Assembly: GCF_009914755.1 (NCBI RefSeq)
Contig: NC_060929.1
From: the human T2T-CHM13v2.0 reference genome, Homo sapiens
DNA length: 64,000 bases
Direction: 5' to 3' (one strand)
Shown here: positions 10,067 to 55,510 of the stretch, piece by piece
Numbering within the stretch: position 1 is the stretch's first letter
How the letters are laid out: each line of letters starts with the position of its first letter
Made by a program: the position numbers and the translations under genes
Notes under the pieces: generated by a model
The model's input: only the letters and a program-made list of their open reading frames with translations
Databases searched by the model: none
What the model was told of the DNA's origin: nothing

Positions 10067-10424
10067 CCGTCCTGGCAGGTGAGCGTGGAGCCTGGCGCTC
10101 CCTGGCGACGACCCTGGTCAGACTTCCAGGAGCGCCCCTGCGGGTAAAGTCACATGTACGCTCTGTTCTGGGCTCAGCAACCGAGCCGTAGGAGAGACGG
10201 AGTGGCCTGGGGCCAGGTCCTGAGTCCGAGGAGCAGCTGTCTGGGCTCTCCCTTGGCCACGAAGCAGCTCACACCGAGGGCAGGAGCAGAGGCCTCCCGG
10301 CCCCGGGCGGAACCCCGCAGGAGGGCCTCCCTGAGGCCAACGTCTCTGGCGCCACCTCCCGCAGTGTTCGCTGGAGCCCGCGGCCATGCAGGGCCACACG
10401 GACCCGGGGGCTGCGCAGAACTGG

Positions 10425-11048
10425 GGCCCTCGTGCACCGTGGGTGGGAATGGAACGTGGCGCCGCTGCTGTGGAAAACCAAAGGGCAACTCCTCAGAAAG
10501 TTAACACAGAATCTCTATAGGGCCCAGCAATCCCACCTCCAGGCCTATCCACAAAAGAATCGAAAACAGGGGCTCCAAGAAGTACGAGTACACACATGCG
10601 CATAGAAACCGCATGCGCAGCAGCCGAGAGGCAGAAGCAGCCCAGACGTCCCCTTGACGGCTGAGTGCATAATGGGGCCTCCATAGAAGGGAATATGTTT
10701 CCGCCACAGCAAGGGACGCCGCACCGACACGGGGAACCGCACGGGTGAACCTCGAGACACCGTGCTCAGTGGGGTTCGCCAGACACAGAAGGCCACAGAG
10801 CGCACAATTCCTTTTACATGTAATATCCAGAACCGGTAATTCCGCAGTGACAGGGGGCTGCCTGGGGCTGGGAGAAAGGAACGGGAATGACTGCTCATGG
10901 GTGCGGGGCTTCCTTTTGGGGTGATGAAGCTGCCCGGAAGTGTCCAGAGGTGGCAGCTGCCCACTGCGAGTGTGATAAATGCCATCGAGTTGCTCACTCT
11001 AAAAGGGTTAATTTTGTGTTGTGTGAATTTCACCTCAGTTTTAAAAAG
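10425..11048 (+). mobile_element. Old L1 (L1MB-like) 3' end
   Basis: GGTGGGAATGG...GCTGTGGAAAAC...CCCAGCAATCCCAC...TTTTGTGTTGTGTGAATTTCACCTCA follows the L1M ORF2-end/3'UTR layout. Confidence 0.75.
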
Positions 11049-40199: not shown

Positions 40200-40920
40200 G
40201 ACCCAGGGGCCCTCCCTCGGGCCAGTTTCGGGACAGGCCCCCGCTCCGGAAGAGCACGGAACTCTGGCACCCCGGTCGCCCGCCCCTGCTTCCCCACGCG
40301 CCCCGGCCCTTAGGGTTCAGCGGCCCCGGCTGGGAAGAGCTGGGCCTGCAGGGCCCGGAGGACACTGCGGCACCGGAGCCGGCCCTGCGCGCGGGCTGTG
40401 AGGTCGCGTTCGGGAGCCGCCAGTTCTCCCGCCCCGGGGTCGCTGGACACCCCCTCCTGTCGCCAGGTCGGGCGCCCACGGTCGGACCCGCATCCCCCAC
40501 CCTGGCCCTCTGAGACCGCCAGGCCCCGGCCCACGCTCCTCTGACCGCAGCCCACTCGGGGAGACACGCCCGAGGGTCCCAAGGTGGCCGGCCCCACCCT
40601 CTCGCAGCCCCCACTCTCAGGACACCCGGGACCCCTGACCTGAGAAGACGGCTCCCTTACCCGGCCACACGCCCTTACCCGGCCGCACGCTCTCACCCGG
40701 CGCCGACCCCTGCGTCTGCGCACTGGCACGCGGACGCTGCTGCCAGGAAGGAAGATGGCGGCGGGGGGGGGGGTCACGTGGCGTGCCCACGTCCAGTGCG
40801 GGGCGCAGAGACGCAGCGACGAGTGCGCAGGCGCTGGAGTGCGACGTATCACTCCCCGACTGCGCGCACTCTGCGGGCCACCGGGATCGTCGTGCTGTTT
40901 GGAGCGCTCTCGGGAAAAAA
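40200..40920. promoter_or_regulatory. CpG-island promoter of MRPL36
   Basis: High CpG density; YY1 AAGATGGCGGC at 40752-62; G11 tract; E-box GTCACGTGG at 40773-81; NRF1-like TGCGCAGGCGC at 40824-34. Confidence 0.85.
40640..40750 (-). other. MRPL36: MRPL36 non-coding first exon region (several candidate donors; TSS approximate)
   Basis: CpG island with minus-strand donor motifs whose GT begins at 40696, 40678, 40660 and 40639. Confidence 0.7.
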
Positions 40921-41114
40921 AATGCAAAAACCAGGAACGAAAATGGATATCCGCAACGAAAAAGAAATTACAACCACTTAGGCCTTAGAAAAAACTGGCA
41001 AATACCAATGTCAAAACAAACTGAGAAAGAGGACATGTTTTTAAGTGGACAGGAGAAATGTAAACAGGCTCCGGGAAACGAGTGGAGACGGGCAGTAGTT
41101 TCAACTGGTTACGG

Positions 41115-41290
41115 CTGTTTTCCCCAACATTATGAAAAACTTCGGACATAGAGAAAAAGGGAAAGAACTGTACGGTGAACACCCATATACTTGCCACCTA
41201 GATTCTACACTTAGCTCGCTTATCCCTGCCTTTTCAGGTATCTACCCGTAACTCCATTCGCCTTCCTTTTTGTGTGTGTCCGGGTGAGTT
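41115..41290 (-). mobile_element. L1MC-like 3' fragment between the two promoters
   Basis: ATTATGAAAAACTTC...GTACGGTGAACACCCATATAC...CCACCTAGATTCTAC resembles an antisense L1MC end. Confidence 0.5.
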
Positions 41291-42045
41291 GCAGACGTGG
41301 CTGCGTCCACTCCGCGCTCCCTGCAGGCCCCAACGCTTCATCGCAGCGCCCACTTTTTCCACCTGACCCGGCGAACACCGGGCGGGCCGCTGGAGTTTAT
41401 CAGCTCCAGGACAAATCTGCCTCTGACCACCACGTTTGCTGGGACATCTTTGGGACCGGAGGTTTTCATGTGCATTCTTGTTTCTCATGCCTTTCCTCCT
41501 CTTTATCATCTTCCCCGCCACTCATCCATCTCTAGTGTTTTGTTCTTGGAGTCACGTGGTCCTCAGGCTCTGACCACAGCAAAATAAAAGCTGGATGCTG
41601 GAGCTTAAGCTGGGATTTATACCCAAGTCAGCTCTAAGCAAAACGGGCCTTTTTAGAGGCTGTATTTGCATGCTGTAAAATCAGTCGGTGTACTAGGCTT
41701 TGTTGCAGAAATCCCCAATATACGTTTCCTCTGCGGCTCCCCATAACCACACACAGGAACGCTTGCCTTGAACGAGGAGAATGCACTTCCAGTCTCGTCT
41801 GCTAAGCAGTTGACTCCTTCACCCAATAATTTTGATATTTAAATGTCTCATGATTATCGGTTACCATAAGAATATAAACAATGTATTTTCAGTTTACATC
41901 CTCCCCTGCCTGTCCGCTAAATAAGAACCACTGGGTACTCCTAATCGCTGAAGGTTTCGCACACCATTGCCTGCCTCATCAGGGCCCTAGCTCTAGCCTG
42001 CGGCTGCAACTGCATGAGGCTGCACCTGCCGGCGCAACGGGGCCG

Positions 42046-42164
42046 CTTAACTTTTAGGCCATTGATGAAAAGTCAAACAAGCGCACAGTACTCGGTGTAA
42101 TCAGGGGCATTTTTAGCGAGATACCTGGGATGAAAACGGGTGACCACCTGAATCAGAGAGCAGC
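42046..42164 (+). repeat. Inverted repeat, left arm (119 bp)
   Basis: Reverse complement of 42997-43115 with 5 mismatches (42082, 42143, 42144, 42151, 42158). Confidence 0.97.
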
Positions 42165-42720
42165 TCCGGCGCACCCTCTGCCCCGACCCGCGCTCCCCCC
42201 GCCCCGGGGCGAAATAAATACCGGGTGTTTGGCGCCGCCAGAAGCCGTGCGCATGCGTTAGCGCTAAGCGGGACGTTGCGCCGGGTCAAAGGCCAGCGGC
42301 GCAAAATGGCGGCGGCGATGACCTTCTGCCGGCTGCTGAACCGGTGTGGCGAGGCGGCGCGGAGCCTGCCCCTGGGCGCCAGGTGTTTCGGGGTGCGGGT
42401 CTCGCCGACCGGGGAGAAGGTCACGCACACTGGCCAGGTAACGGCCGCTGGGTACAGGATGCCCCTTCCTCCAGCCGCACCTCGGGCGACTGGTGGCAGT
42501 GGGCTCGCCGGGCATCCGCGGCCCTGGTTCTGCGCCGGCAGCGCAGGTCGTGGTAAGGTTGTGCTGTCGCTCACGCGCCGGGGAGGACGCCCGCGAGTCG
42601 GGACGGTGGTGGCAGCCTGTAGCGGTGGGTCTCGTCCTTCCAGGGCCTGCGGGCTCTGGAACGGGAAGTCTCCCCAGCGGGCAGCACTTGCTGTGGACTG
42701 GCTGCCCATGGGCGATTTGT
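42165..42720 (+). promoter_or_regulatory. CpG-island promoter and first exon region of NDUFS6
   Basis: CpG-rich; NRF1-type TGCGCATGCG at 42248-57; YY1 motif CAAAATGGCGGC overlapping the ATG. Confidence 0.85.
42306..42437 (+). CDS. NDUFS6: NADH:ubiquinone oxidoreductase subunit S6, coding exon 1 (aa 1-44, includes the mitochondrial presequence)
   Basis: MAAAMTFCRLLNRCGEAARSLPLGARCFGVRVSPTGEKVTHTGQ; strong Kozak AAAATGG; donor CAG/GTAACG. Confidence 0.97.
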
Positions 42721-42996
42721 GGCAGCCGATTATTTGGGTCAGAACGTTTAGAATTTGTGTAATATTCAATAATAAATTTTAGTAACCTGAGAAGTCGGTT
42801 GTAGTCCAAGGCACAAAAAAGCCCTAAGCCAAAATGAAGAACAAAGGTACCTGTGTATACTGGAATGTGCCCTAGTAGATTTAATGGGGGGATAGTAAAG
42901 CTCTCAGGCCATATGCCAAAGAAGGTTGGGGGCGGTTCTCCTCGGTCAGGATTTGTCTCTCCTCCTTAGCTCCACCTTCCCGGGCTATGTCTCTGT

Positions 42997-43115
42997 GCTG
43001 CTTTCTGATCCAGGTGACCACCCGTTTTCATCCCAGGTATCTCGCTAAAAATGCCCCTGATTACACCGAGTACTGTGCACTTGTTTGACTTTTCATCAAT
43101 GGCCTAAAAGTTAAG
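42997..43115 (-). repeat. Inverted repeat, right arm (119 bp, in NDUFS6 intron 1)
   Basis: Reverse complement of 42046-42164. Confidence 0.97.
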
Positions 43116-43208
43116 AAAAACACTTTCCTGTAATATTTATGATTGATATGAAGTGACTTTCAGAATTAGGCCGTAAAAGTCACACATGGTCTTTTTGTTT
43201 TTTTCCAG

Positions 43209-43262
43209 GTTTATGATGATAAAGACTACAGGAGAATTCGGTTTGTAGGTCGTCAGAAAGAG
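43209..43262 (+). CDS. NDUFS6: NDUFS6 exon 2 (aa 45-62)
   Basis: TTTTCCAG acceptor; [18 protein letters not shown]; donor GAG/GTGAGT; phase 0. Confidence 0.97.
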
Positions 43263-44752
43263 GTGAGTAAAAAATCTAGTGAAGAGAGGTAAGCTTTCCT
43301 AAAACTTTTATGTAACCAACAAGAAATAAAAATTAATATATAAGATTTAAATAAATTTTCCCCATATTGCAAGCACCCTAACAGTTCTGGATGGGGTTCT
43401 TCCTTTCTTAAAATCTTAATTGTGTCTATTTCTGACTTGTTTCCCCCTGAAATACATAACATTGTAGCCGTAGTTCTGGTTTGCATATAAATGGAAGTGA
43501 TCTTTTTTAAAATTCTTGTCCCTTATTCTCCTGAGACTCTCAGATTTAAGTAAATCATATCAACTTTAAAAAAATTATTCTTTTAACCACCTGGAGGTGT
43601 GTTTTTTATAGTTTTCACCAAATAAATTAGTGTGTGTTTTTTACAGGGACTTACACTGACAAGCTGAAAATGGCACATGAGTTTTTCTTCCCTTAGTGGG
43701 TCTGTTAGCTCTATGCATTGTAAGGGAAGATCAGTTCAGGTGCCTGTGAGTGACCACTGGAGAAAGAATGTTGAAATTAGAATCCTTCTGCCTAAATCAG
43801 CCTATTTTTTTTTTTTTACCTGACTCCTTCTCTATCACTCATGTCAATGAGCTCCTGAATTCGTAATTAGATCAGGCATGCCTCCATGATTCCTGAATTT
43901 GCTTCCTGAAGGATGCTGTGAAGTGTCCTTCACAGCCACCTTATTCATTCTTTTTCCCACTTTGGTTAGCCTGGTGTTCTTCTTGTTAACACCGTAGCTA
44001 TCCCTAAATCATGTATTTTCCCTTCTCCTTCAATCTTGGTTACGTTATCCATTCCCAGTGTGTAGTTTTTGTACGTCTATTCCAGAGCTACAGGGCATTC
44101 TAGAAAAGCTCACATGATCATGAATTGACTATAAATTCACATTCTCAAAATTCAGCTGGTTCACTGTTGTGTGGTTTGATGGGTGGGTGTCAGAAAAGTT
44201 TGTTTTATAGTGGTTGATTATTTGGCAATGCCACTTGAGTGTTGGGTTGAGAAAGATCCTGAGGCCTGATGCACATTCAGTGGAAGAGTGTGCCATGATT
44301 GATTAGTGATGTCTACCAGGATCATGGTGGTGGAGAGGAGCTTGTGTCTGGTGGGTTTGCCTCTCGGAGTAGAAGCTGTGTGGACTTGCAGTCTAAAAAT
44401 TGTGAGGTTGAATCACAGCATGGGTTCAGTTTTCTCATTTGTGAAATGGAACCATGTGAATATTTTTAATTGAATCATAAGTCTCCAGTGATATCACACT
44501 GTCAGTTGTCGAGTAAGTGGTGCATAGGGTAAGTGCTCTTTCTCTCCATCCTCAGAAACCCTTTTCTGTTTGTTGTTTGAATTGTTAGTGTATTCCCAGT
44601 AGAAGCATCTGTTCCATGTGCCACATTCTCCAATGCTGTATCCCAGTGATTCACACAAAGGAGCTCATGGCATTGCGAATGGGACATTTCTTCCGTGTGC
44701 AGGCTGTCCTGGGCATTCTTGTTAGGTATATGAACTTGACATTTGGAAGGTG

Positions 44753-53375: not shown

Positions 53376-53750
<375 letters not shown>

Positions 53751-53951
53751 GACTCCTCTTTTAACACAACCTTAGTTGCCTTAAAAACTTCCCTGACTTG
53801 TGCCACAGTAGAGTGTCTGAAGTTCATTCTATAACATTTCCTGTCCTGGACCCAGAATCAGTCATTTTTGAAAGAATCCAGTCCCTTCCCTTCGGTGTGA
53901 AATGGTGTTTAGAGACCACCATGTGGGCAGCAGGGGTCCTCATTGCCCTGA

Positions 53952-54286
<335 letters not shown>

Positions 54287-55510
54287 AGAAAGGGTGTGTG
54301 TGAACATCAGACATGGGATGAGTCACACTGATCCTTCCAAACTTAGTTCAGGGTTACAAGACTTCTGCTGAACCAGTGAGCTGACCTCTCTATTTCCTTC
54401 CCCACACTGAAAATCCTGATTTTTCAATAATAATTTCATTTGCTTTGGAAGCGGTTTTATTCTTAAGGTGTGTCCTGTTAGAAATGTTCCTGTTACTCTC
54501 TTAAAGTGTTGGGAATTCCTTAGGTCCATTTGTCTCTTTTAAAAGTTTAGTTTTCTAACTTTGAAAAATATAAAATATAGTCTCAGTCAGATTTATAAAA
54601 CTTGGAAGAAAGTCTAACGATCGTGCTCGCGTCCTCCTTCCTTTCCACCTCACAGTAGTAACTGTTCAGTGCTTTCTTCTTTGGATTTCATGTAAATCAG
54701 TGAATATGTAGGCGGACCCCTGGTATTCCCCACATGGATGAGTGGAAGCTTCCTGTCCACTTACCCACTGCCTGGCATCTCCACGTAGTCCTGTGTCCTC
54801 CTTCACCCCATCGCGGTATTATGGAGACACTTTTTTCATTCCGTTTTGATAGTAACTGAAAGCATCAGCACACAAGCAGGACGTGAAGTTACCAGAGTCT
54901 TTCCCGCACATGCCTATGAGTCATAAATGACCAGGTGGAAGACACAGTGGATGAGGAGACCCAGTGTACGGTAGCAGCAAACAAGAGAAAACACTTAGGA
55001 ACAACCTAACCGGCATTCAGGACCTCTGTGGCCCAAGGGGAAAGCCGGAAGGACATTGTTGGTCTAACGGATTGCAGAGCTACTGGCATTTTTGGCATTT
55101 TAGATAAATCTATTCCATCGGTATCATGTTTACTGAGGTGGATAACTGCATGGAGGTTCTGTGAGAGAATGTTCTTATGAAACGCACATGGGAGCCTGTG
55201 ACAGACAGGCCCGAGCAATACAAATGTCCTCAGGTGGGACAGAACGATGTGGTGGAGAGAAGAGGGCGTGGCAGAGCCCACGGGGCACGTGTCAGCATTT
55301 GCTGGGTCCACGGGGACAGAAGGGAAAGGCTCTGTGCTGCTGGGATTCTTGCAGTGCCTCTCCGCGTTTGGAACTTTATTCCAGTGAAAAGTAGATGTGT
55401 GTGTAGGCCCTGAATTTAATAAGGTCTACAATGATAATAGTTAAATGAAGCATGCACCATAGATTCGTGCTGATGGTACATGAATTTGTGTGTGGTGGGT
55501 TAAATTGTAG

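What the first reader, a model, noticed from the sequence alone, without database searches (positions are those of the whole stretch)
42046..43115. Near-perfect 119-bp inverted repeat enclosing the NDUFS6 promoter and exon 1: a potentially invertible cassette
Seen in sequence: 42046-42164 is the reverse complement of 42997-43115 at 114/119 positions, and the outer 97 bp differ only by one CpG-type transition. The 832-bp spacer holds the NRF1 and YY1 motifs, the ATG, all of coding exon 1 and its donor. The arms are not an Alu, L1 or LTR that I recognise. Inference: such identity implies a recent origin or ongoing arm-to-arm gene conversion. Recombination between the arms would flip exon 1 and give a copy-neutral NDUFS6 null allele that exon-targeted and CNV tests would tend to miss. 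Established: biallelic NDUFS6 loss causes complex I deficiency. Caveat: 119 bp is short for efficient homologous recombination, so inversion may be rare.
Basis: partly seen in the sequence, partly recalled or inferred. Interest (0 to 1): 0.8.

Follow-up and report, generated by a model that had tools for sequence, protein, structure and literature searches.

The report
Small inverted duplication flanking NDUFS6 exon 1
A real 119-base sequence occurs twice, in opposite orientations, on either side of the promoter and first exon of the mitochondrial disease gene NDUFS6, but nothing yet shows that the piece between the copies ever flips.

Summary
Window 42046-42164 is the reverse complement of 42997-43115 at 114 of 119 positions, with an 832-nt spacer. 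All five differences are transitions. The outer 97 bp differ only at one CpG. The similarity stops sharply at the arm ends. These are the only two copies found in the 3.1-Gb assembly, and the flanks are single copy. So this is a local two-copy inverted duplication, not a pair of interspersed repeats.

The spacer holds NDUFS6 exon 1, the ATG, the splice donor and the NRF1- and YY1-like strings.

- Five differences fit a single copy event roughly 7-98 Myr ago, without any gene conversion.
- The clustering of differences is weak (P=0.026, or 0.14 if the adjacent pair counts as one event).
- The longest perfect tracts are 60 and 36 bp, below published recombination thresholds. The arms are shorter than the smallest breakpoint repeat (140 bp) among validated human inversions.
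- No searched paper links NDUFS6 to such an inversion.

Primate orthologues, Dfam and pangenome haplotypes could not be examined. Most likely this is a passive scar of a replication or repair copy error. Inversion remains an untested, probably rare, possibility.

The parts
42046..42164 (.). Left arm of the inverted repeat. It lies at the upstream edge of the NDUFS6 CpG island. Its inner 40 bp are part of an alternative MRPL36 exon.
   Evidence: 114/119 to the reverse complement of the right arm; only two copies in the genome; hub gene table for the exon 42125-42251 (-).
42997..43115 (.). Right arm of the inverted repeat, inside NDUFS6 intron 1. It ends 93 bp before exon 2 (43209).
   Evidence: (96% match on the minus strand); hub gene table for the exon positions.
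42165..42996 (+). The 832-nt spacer: core NDUFS6 promoter, exon 1, splice donor and the first 559 nt of intron 1. About 62% G+C. It also holds MRPL36 alternative first exons on the minus strand.
   Evidence: composition, CpG profile; 42700-43000 is single copy; no further inverted similarity inside the spacer.
42295..42437 (+). NDUFS6 exon 1 (coding 42306-42437), with GT at 42438-42439.
   Evidence: Hub gene table; ATG and donor read.
42125..42251 (-). Alternative MRPL36 exon whose 3' end and donor (CCCAG|GTATC on the minus strand, GT at 42124-42123) lie inside the left arm.
   Evidence: Hub gene table; sequence read.
42249..42257 (+). NRF1-like string GCGCATGCG.
   Evidence: 2 matches in the window, 0.10 expected. 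The name of the consensus is recalled.
42303..42313 (+). YY1-like string AAAATGGCGGC overlapping the start codon.
   Evidence: 2 matches in the window, 0.10 expected. The name of the consensus is recalled.

Best explanation
This is a genuine two-copy local inverted duplication. A 119-bp piece of unique sequence exists once at the upstream edge of the NDUFS6 CpG-island promoter and once, reverse-complemented, in NDUFS6 intron 1, 951 bp away (start to start). I think the most likely history is a single copy-and-paste error of replication or break repair: a template switch to the opposite strand, or templated repair synthesis. That event placed a discrete block with sharp ends. It probably happened in the primate lineage millions to tens of millions of years ago. 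The copies have since drifted apart by five transitions. Today the repeat is most likely a passive structural scar. The gene works in the present orientation. The arms are too short and too interrupted to recombine at any appreciable rate. Shown here: the repeat, its uniqueness, its sharp boundaries and what it encloses. Inferred: the mechanism of origin, the age and the passivity.
For: Arms match at 114/119 with an 832-nt spacer. Only these two places match in the 3.1-Gb assembly. The neighbouring stretches 41700-42045 and 42700-43000 each match only themselves. There is no inverted similarity beyond the arms: 600-bp outer flanks score 13 against a shuffle mean of 11.6 and maximum of 16, and the inner parts score no better than shuffles. 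Five differences give K2P 0.044. That is a point age of 22-44 Myr with a Poisson range of 7-98 Myr, using rates of 0.5-1.0e-9 per site per year recalled from memory. No Rfam family matches the arms meaningfully (5 matches, all E>=0.33 and far below gathering scores). Template-switch mutations that create inverted copies are documented in human genomes, with copied fragments up to 318 bp (PMC9435742 passages; PMC5453318 passages). The longest perfect tracts are 60 and 36 bp, against minimal processing segments of 134-232 bp and 300-500 bp (PMC2583991 passages).
Against: No outgroup sequence was available, so the age, the direction of copying and even fixation in humans are inferred, not shown. 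The template-switch scans I read discarded events with the source more than 250 bp away, so the roughly 950-bp distance here lies outside their documented range. Four of the five differences sit in the inner 16 bp (P=0.026). That could mean the outer 97 bp have been homogenised, so the repeat may not be wholly passive. The genome search is BLAST-like after a word-based first look and skips common words, so family members below roughly 80-85% identity could have been missed (caveat printed). Dfam was not available.
Confidence: 0.65

Rival explanations
1. The repeat is an active recombination substrate. The arms still exchange sequence, by gene conversion or by replication template switching between the arms. 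Occasionally the exchange resolves as an inversion of the 832-bp spacer, giving a copy-neutral NDUFS6 null allele in the germline or in somatic cells.
For: The outer 97 bp carry 1 difference and the inner 22 bp carry 4 (Fisher P=0.004; scan permutation P=0.026). The arms are close together, which lowers the homology needed: events with under 50 bp of identity occur between alpha-globin repeats 5 kb apart (PMC2583991). Validated human inversions have breakpoint repeats as short as 140 bp (PMC13629690). Template switching can both homogenise inverted-repeat arms and invert the spacer (PMC5453318; PMC8755829). The arm duplex is very stable (-140.6 kcal/mol with DNA parameters).
Against: The clustering drops to P=0.14 if the adjacent AC/GT change is one event. 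The longest perfect tract, 60 bp, is well below the 134-232 bp and 300-500 bp thresholds. NAHR inversions in the 45-inversion study had repeats of 654 bp to 24.2 kb (PMC6748972). No searched paper reports an NDUFS6 exon 1 inversion. NDUFS6 has 0 mentions in the main text of the 612-candidate inversion catalogue (its supplement could not be read).
Confidence: 0.15
2. Both copies are kept similar by purifying selection because the 119-bp block is functional. It could be, for example, a protein-binding or splice-signal module placed on both sides of the divergent promoter. Both divergent transcripts would then carry the same sequence, including a CAG|GT donor-like site.
For: The left arm supplies the 3' end and donor of an annotated alternative MRPL36 exon (hub table). 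The right arm presents the identical CCCAG|GTATC in the sense orientation of NDUFS6 intron 1 (43036|43037). Ninety-six of the outer 97 bp are identical.
Against: There are no conservation data. No Rfam match was found. No annotated NDUFS6 isoform uses the right arm (the hub table lists one transcript). Five differences in 119 bp are also what neutral drift gives.
Confidence: 0.08
3. The arms are the terminal inverted repeats of an old cut-and-paste transposon. A piggyBac-like element is suggested because TTAA sits at both outer ends.
For: The outer ends read C-TTAA-CTTTT... and ...AAAAG-TTAA-G.
Against: TTAA is its own reverse complement, so it is simply part of the repeat. There are no other copies of the arms or of the interior anywhere in the genome. 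The interior is the promoter and first exon of an essential host gene. The arm ends do not begin with the CCC...GGG termini that I recall for piggyBac elements (recalled, not tested).
Confidence: 0.03
4. One arm is an assembly artefact, or an insertion private to the sequenced genome.
For: Only one assembly could be examined.
Against: An artefactual or very recent copy should be identical to its source, whereas these differ at 5 of 119 positions. Part of the left arm is covered by a RefSeq exon mapped from transcripts (hub table). The boundaries are clean and the flanks are unique.
Confidence: 0.04

Closest known systems
Inverted repeats that mediate polymorphic or pathogenic human inversions by non-allelic homologous recombination (catalogues of Giner-Delgado 2019 and the 2026 ultralong-read study; the F8 intron-1 and intron-22 repeats in haemophilia A, which I recall from memory)
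   Same: A pair of highly identical inverted copies flanks a segment whose inversion would break a gene without changing copy number.
   Different: The arms here are 119 bp with perfect tracts of at most 60 bp. The catalogued breakpoint repeats run from 140 bp to 190 kb or 654 bp to 24.2 kb. No inverted allele is known for this locus.
Inverted copies created by short-range replication template switching (four-point model, Loytynoja and Goldman 2017; Loytynoja 2022)
   Same: A discrete block of nearby sequence is copied in reverse complement, creating a new inverted repeat with sharp ends. The copied length (119 bp) lies within the reported range of up to 318 bp.
   Different: Source and copy are about 950 bp apart, whereas the published scans kept only events within 250 bp. 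The ancestral state could not be checked here.
Microinversions flanked by short inverted repeats between human and chimpanzee (PMC8755829)
   Same: Inverted repeats flank a segment that can be flipped by replication- or repair-based copying rather than by classical recombination.
   Different: Those inversions are 17-33 nt with flanking repeats of 3-75 nt. Here the spacer is 832 nt, and no inversion has been observed.
Closely spaced inverted Alu pairs
   Same: Two inverted copies lie within about 1 kb inside a gene. One such pair sits in NDUFS6 intron 2 of this same window.
   Different: Alu pairs are independent insertions of a high-copy family and match at 74-93% in this window. The arms here are unique sequence at 96%.

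Membership tests
NAHR-type inversion-mediating inverted repeats | Two copies in inverted orientation with high identity (>90%) | tested here: met
   114/119 = 96%.
NAHR-type inversion-mediating inverted repeats | Uninterrupted homology at or above the minimal efficient processing segment | tested here: not met
   The longest perfect tracts are 60 and 36 bp. Published values are 134-232 bp (mitotic) and 300-500 bp (human meiosis) (PMC2583991). The smallest validated breakpoint repeat is 140 bp.
NAHR-type inversion-mediating inverted repeats | Both orientations of the enclosed segment observed among individuals or species | not testable with these tools
   Only one human assembly was available. 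There were no primate or pangenome sequences, and no such report.
Template-switch-derived inverted copy | Reverse-complement copy of nearby unique sequence with discrete ends | tested here: met
   Two copies genome-wide. No similarity beyond the arms.
Template-switch-derived inverted copy | Length and distance within the documented range | tested here: inconclusive
   The length of 119 bp is within the range of up to 318 bp. The distance of about 950 bp exceeds the 250-bp cut-off used in the scan (PMC9435742).
Template-switch-derived inverted copy | An outgroup lacks the copy at the destination site | not testable with these tools
   No primate genomes are held.
Interspersed repeat pair (Alu, L1, LTR, DNA transposon) | Many related copies elsewhere in the genome | tested here: not met
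   2 matches from 2 candidates in 3.1 Gb. The arms are not in the hub's masked list. Caveat: old copies below about 80-85% identity could be missed, and Dfam was not available.
Cut-and-paste transposon with terminal inverted repeats | Target-site duplication, plus an element interior unrelated to host genes | tested here: not met
   The only flank feature is the palindromic TTAA inside the arms. The interior is the NDUFS6 promoter and exon 1 and is single copy.
Structured RNA gene (snoRNA or other Rfam family) | Match to a covariance model at its gathering score | tested here: not met
   the best matches score 13-20 bits against gathering scores of 50-86. The C-box-like TGATGA and D-box-like CTGA in the arm have no terminal stem, by my reading.

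The most novel reading that the evidence does not exclude
The arms still interact. They are kept alike by exchange between them. At a low but recurrent rate the 832-bp spacer flips, in the germline or somatically, producing NDUFS6 alleles that have a normal exon sequence and normal copy number but no function. Such alleles could account for some unsolved complex I cases that carry a single NDUFS6 variant. The flipped MRPL36 alternative exon and its donor would be rebuilt beside NDUFS6 exon 2.
Probability: 0.05. Interest if true: 0.6.

Novelty: new member of a known kind. Interest (0 to 1): 0.3.

Why it matters
NDUFS6 is a recessive complex I disease gene. Biallelic variants cause lethal neonatal encephalopathy or Leigh syndrome, as well as milder neuropathies (abstracts of PMC12898639 and PMC11180951, seen). 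A repeat architecture that could silently flip its promoter and first exon deserves one inexpensive look in long-read population data and in patients with a single detected variant. If all haplotypes share the reference orientation, the feature is a harmless evolutionary scar. It would then be of interest only as a fairly long and long-range example of a local inverted duplication.

Tried and rejected
- Rfam scan of 41800-43400 at E<=10: only five weak chance-level matches.
- snoRNA reading: a C-box-like and a D-box-like string occur about 89 nt apart in the arm. I rejected it because there is no terminal stem, the box orientation is antisense to the host intron, and there is no Rfam hit.
More diverged copies therefore remain unsearched.
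- Tandem Repeats Finder on 41500-43600: nothing.
- A larger, older palindrome: rejected, because there is no inverted similarity in the 600-bp outer flanks or inside the spacer beyond shuffle level.
- A retrocopy of the upstream antisense transcript into intron 1: considered because the right arm has the sense of minus-strand transcripts over the left arm and is followed by AAAAA. Rejected because I read no poly(A) signal before the arm end, only five A's, and no convincing target-site duplication.
- A scar of a past inversion made by staggered breaks: rejected on logic, since exon 1 must have been collinear with the gene both before and after.
- Base-rate control: a self-comparison for inverted repeats of at least 80 bp, at least 90% identity and a spacer of at most 3 kb found 1 in the window (this one) and 0 in 20 of 20 random 10-kb stretches of the same genome (264,000 bases in all). 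I had planned 60 stretches but only 20 could be fetched, so the upper bound on frequency is loose, about 15 per Mb.
- Literature: NDUFS6 + 'inverted repeat' gave 3 papers. NDUFS6 + inversion + 'structural variant' gave 6. NDUFS6 + MRPL36 + promoter gave 15. NDUFS6 + inversion gave 40. Judged by titles and abstract starts, none is about this repeat. In PMC11180951 the word 'inversion' refers to an MRI sequence.

Full report
THE OBSERVATION

The repeat finder gives arms 42046-42164 and 42997-43115, 119 nt, 96% complementary, with 832 nt between them. Aligning the left arm with the reverse complement of the right arm gives 114 identities in 119 columns and no gaps.

The five differences are at arm positions 37 (C in the left arm, T in the right, in a CG context), 98-99 (AC against GT), 106 (A/G) and 113 (G/A). 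All five are transitions.

Chance does not produce this. The longest exact inverted word in 41000-44500 is 60 nt, against a mean of 12 and a maximum of 18 in 50 shuffles.

WHAT THE REPEAT ENCLOSES

The spacer 42165-42996 contains:
- the string GCGCATGCG at 42249-42257 (2 matches in the window, 0.10 expected);
- AAAATGGCGGC at 42303-42313, overlapping the start codon (2 matches, 0.10 expected);
- the ATG at 42306;
- the rest of coding exon 1 to 42437, and GT at 42438 (with the hub's gene table).

I recall that these two strings are NRF1- and YY1-type sites; no call tested it. The spacer is 62% G+C, and its first 550 nt or so form the CpG island.

The left arm sits at the island's upstream edge. 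The right arm lies in intron 1 and ends 93 bp before exon 2.

WHAT THE ARMS ARE

A search of the whole 3.1-Gb assembly with the left arm returns just two places: itself at 100% and the right arm at 96% on the other strand. These came from two first-look candidates. The 346 bp left of the left arm and the 301 bp left of the right arm each match only themselves. The arms are not among the stretches the hub lists as masked.

Within the window, the repeat finder reports 27 inverted pairs of at least 50 nt within 10 kb. Of the 25 shown, all others are 74-93% complementary, and the ones I checked coincide with masked stretches. This is the only pair at 96%.

As a rough base-rate control I drew random 10-kb stretches of the same genome. 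Only 20 of the 60 planned could be fetched. A self-comparison for inverted repeats of at least 80 bp, at least 90% identity and a spacer of at most 3 kb found none in those 20 stretches. In the window it found only this one (264,000 bases in all).

The similarity ends abruptly. The 20-bp flanks are unrelated. Local alignment of the 600-bp outer flanks, and of the inner parts of the spacer, scores no better than shuffles.

No Rfam family matches (five matches, all weak). A C/D-box-like pair of strings in the arm has no terminal stem and faces the wrong way for the host intron.

So the feature is a discrete 119-bp block of otherwise unique sequence, present twice in opposite orientation 951 bp apart. 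It is a local inverted duplication, not two members of a repeat family.

The limit of this statement is sensitivity. The genome search is word-based, so copies below roughly 80-85% identity could be missed. Dfam was not available.

ORIGIN AND AGE

Five differences in 119 bp give a Kimura distance of 0.044. With substitution rates of 0.5-1.0e-9 per site per year (recalled from memory), the point estimate is 22-44 Myr. The Poisson range for five events spans 7-98 Myr. That is 'recent' only on a mammalian scale.

It also argues against an assembly artefact or an insertion private to this genome, either of which should be identical to its source.

With that partition fixed in advance, Fisher's test gives P=0.004. 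But the partition was chosen after seeing the data. A scan permutation (the smallest span holding 4 of 5 differences) gives P=0.026. If the adjacent AC/GT change is one mutational event, P=0.14. Homogenisation of the outer part is therefore possible but not demonstrated.

For the mechanism of origin I favour a replication or repair copying error. Template-switch mutations that paste a reverse-complement copy of nearby sequence, creating new inverted repeats, are documented in human genomes (PMC5453318, passages read). Copied fragments reach 318 bp in haplotype assemblies (PMC9435742, passages read). However, that scan discarded events whose source lay more than 250 bp away. The distance of about 950 bp here is outside what has been surveyed.

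I considered and rejected three other origins:
- A retrocopy: no poly(A) signal, only five A's, and no target-site duplication.
- A transposon with terminal inverted repeats: the TTAA at both outer ends is simply a palindrome inside the repeat, there are no other copies, and the interior is a host promoter and exon.
- A breakpoint scar of a past inversion: exon 1 must always have been collinear with the gene.

COULD IT INVERT?

In principle, yes. Intrachromatid recombination, or a double template switch between the arms, would flip the spacer.

By inference from the annotation, NDUFS6 exon 1 and its promoter would then point towards MRPL36. The alternative MRPL36 exon 42125-42251 has its donor inside the left arm (minus strand CCCAG|GTATC). 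That exon would be rebuilt next to NDUFS6 exon 2, giving transcripts without the NDUFS6 start codon and presequence. The canonical MRPL36 first exon (40679-40724) lies outside the repeat and would be untouched.

The substrate is poor, though. The longest uninterrupted identities are 60 and 36 bp. The review by Gu, Zhang and Lupski (PMC2583991, passages read) reports:
- a 20-fold drop in intrachromosomal recombination when uninterrupted homology falls from 232 to 134 bp;
- 300-500 bp as the processing segment in human meiosis;
- on the other side, events with under 50 bp of identity between alpha-globin repeats only 5 kb apart, which shows that proximity relaxes the requirement.

In the 45-inversion study, the recombination-mediated inversions had repeats of 654 bp to 24.2 kb (PMC6748972, passages read). 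In the 2026 catalogue of 612 candidates, breakpoint repeats range from 140 bp to 190 kb and inverted segments start at 197 bp (PMC13629690, passages read). This repeat therefore falls just under the smallest validated case.

That paper's main text does not mention NDUFS6, and its supplementary table could not be read.

Human-chimpanzee microinversions flanked by repeats of 3-75 nt exist, but they are 17-33 nt long (PMC8755829, passages read).

None of my literature searches found a report of this repeat or of an NDUFS6 exon 1 inversion. The searches were NDUFS6 with 'inverted repeat' (3 papers), with inversion and 'structural variant' (6), with MRPL36 and promoter (15), and with inversion (40). 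I judged them by titles and abstract starts. In PMC11180951 the word refers to an MRI sequence.

ON DETECTION

It is plausible that exon capture and copy-number assays would miss a flipped spacer. By my inference, read pairs or long reads that span a 119-bp arm would reveal it. Whole-genome data should therefore not be blind to it.

VERDICT

The structure is real, unique and placed around a disease gene's first exon. The data do not require ongoing conversion, and there is no evidence of inversion.

I rate it as a new member of a known kind: a small local inverted duplication, most likely a passive scar (confidence 0.65). An actively exchanging, occasionally inverting repeat is the main rival (0.15). 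The odds that inverted alleles of medical relevance exist are about 0.05.

The decisive tests are quick: Dfam on the arms, primate orthologues, and spacer orientation in pangenome haplotypes.

Noticed in passing
window 53436-53756 and 53991-54297 (NDUFS6 intron 2): Two masked, Alu-like stretches lie in inverted orientation only about 240 nt apart. They match in pieces at 86-93% (pairs I11 and I17-I19). This is a longer and closer inverted repeat than the one in the finding. It lies inside one pre-mRNA, so it could form double-stranded RNA.
   Followed up: no
window 43036|43037, with 42957-42969 upstream: The right arm carries, in the sense orientation of NDUFS6 intron 1, the same CCCAG|GTATC that serves as the donor of the alternative MRPL36 exon in the left arm. 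A pyrimidine-rich ...ctctcctccttag ends at 42969. On paper, then, a 67-nt cryptic exon (42970-43036) is possible. No annotated isoform uses it.
   Followed up: no
window 42475-42499, 42591-42615, 42701-42725: Three loosely similar 25-nt direct repeats ending in TGGTGGCAG or TGTGGCAG are spaced 116 and 110 nt apart in the intron 1 part of the CpG island (68-72% to the reference copy). Tandem Repeats Finder reports no array there. This may be chance or a decayed repeat of about 113 bp.
   Followed up: partly
window 40752-40762 and 10610-10618: A second YY1-like string, AAGATGGCGGC, lies just beyond the canonical MRPL36 first exon. A second GCGCATGCG lies inside a RefSeq-annotated enhancer, 10154-10860.
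   Followed up: no
window 42222-42322 (-) and 42295-42437 (+): According to the hub's table, an alternative MRPL36 first exon overlaps the first 28 bases of NDUFS6 exon 1 on the opposite strand. The two genes therefore share a head-to-head overlapping start region that lies wholly inside the spacer.
   Followed up: no
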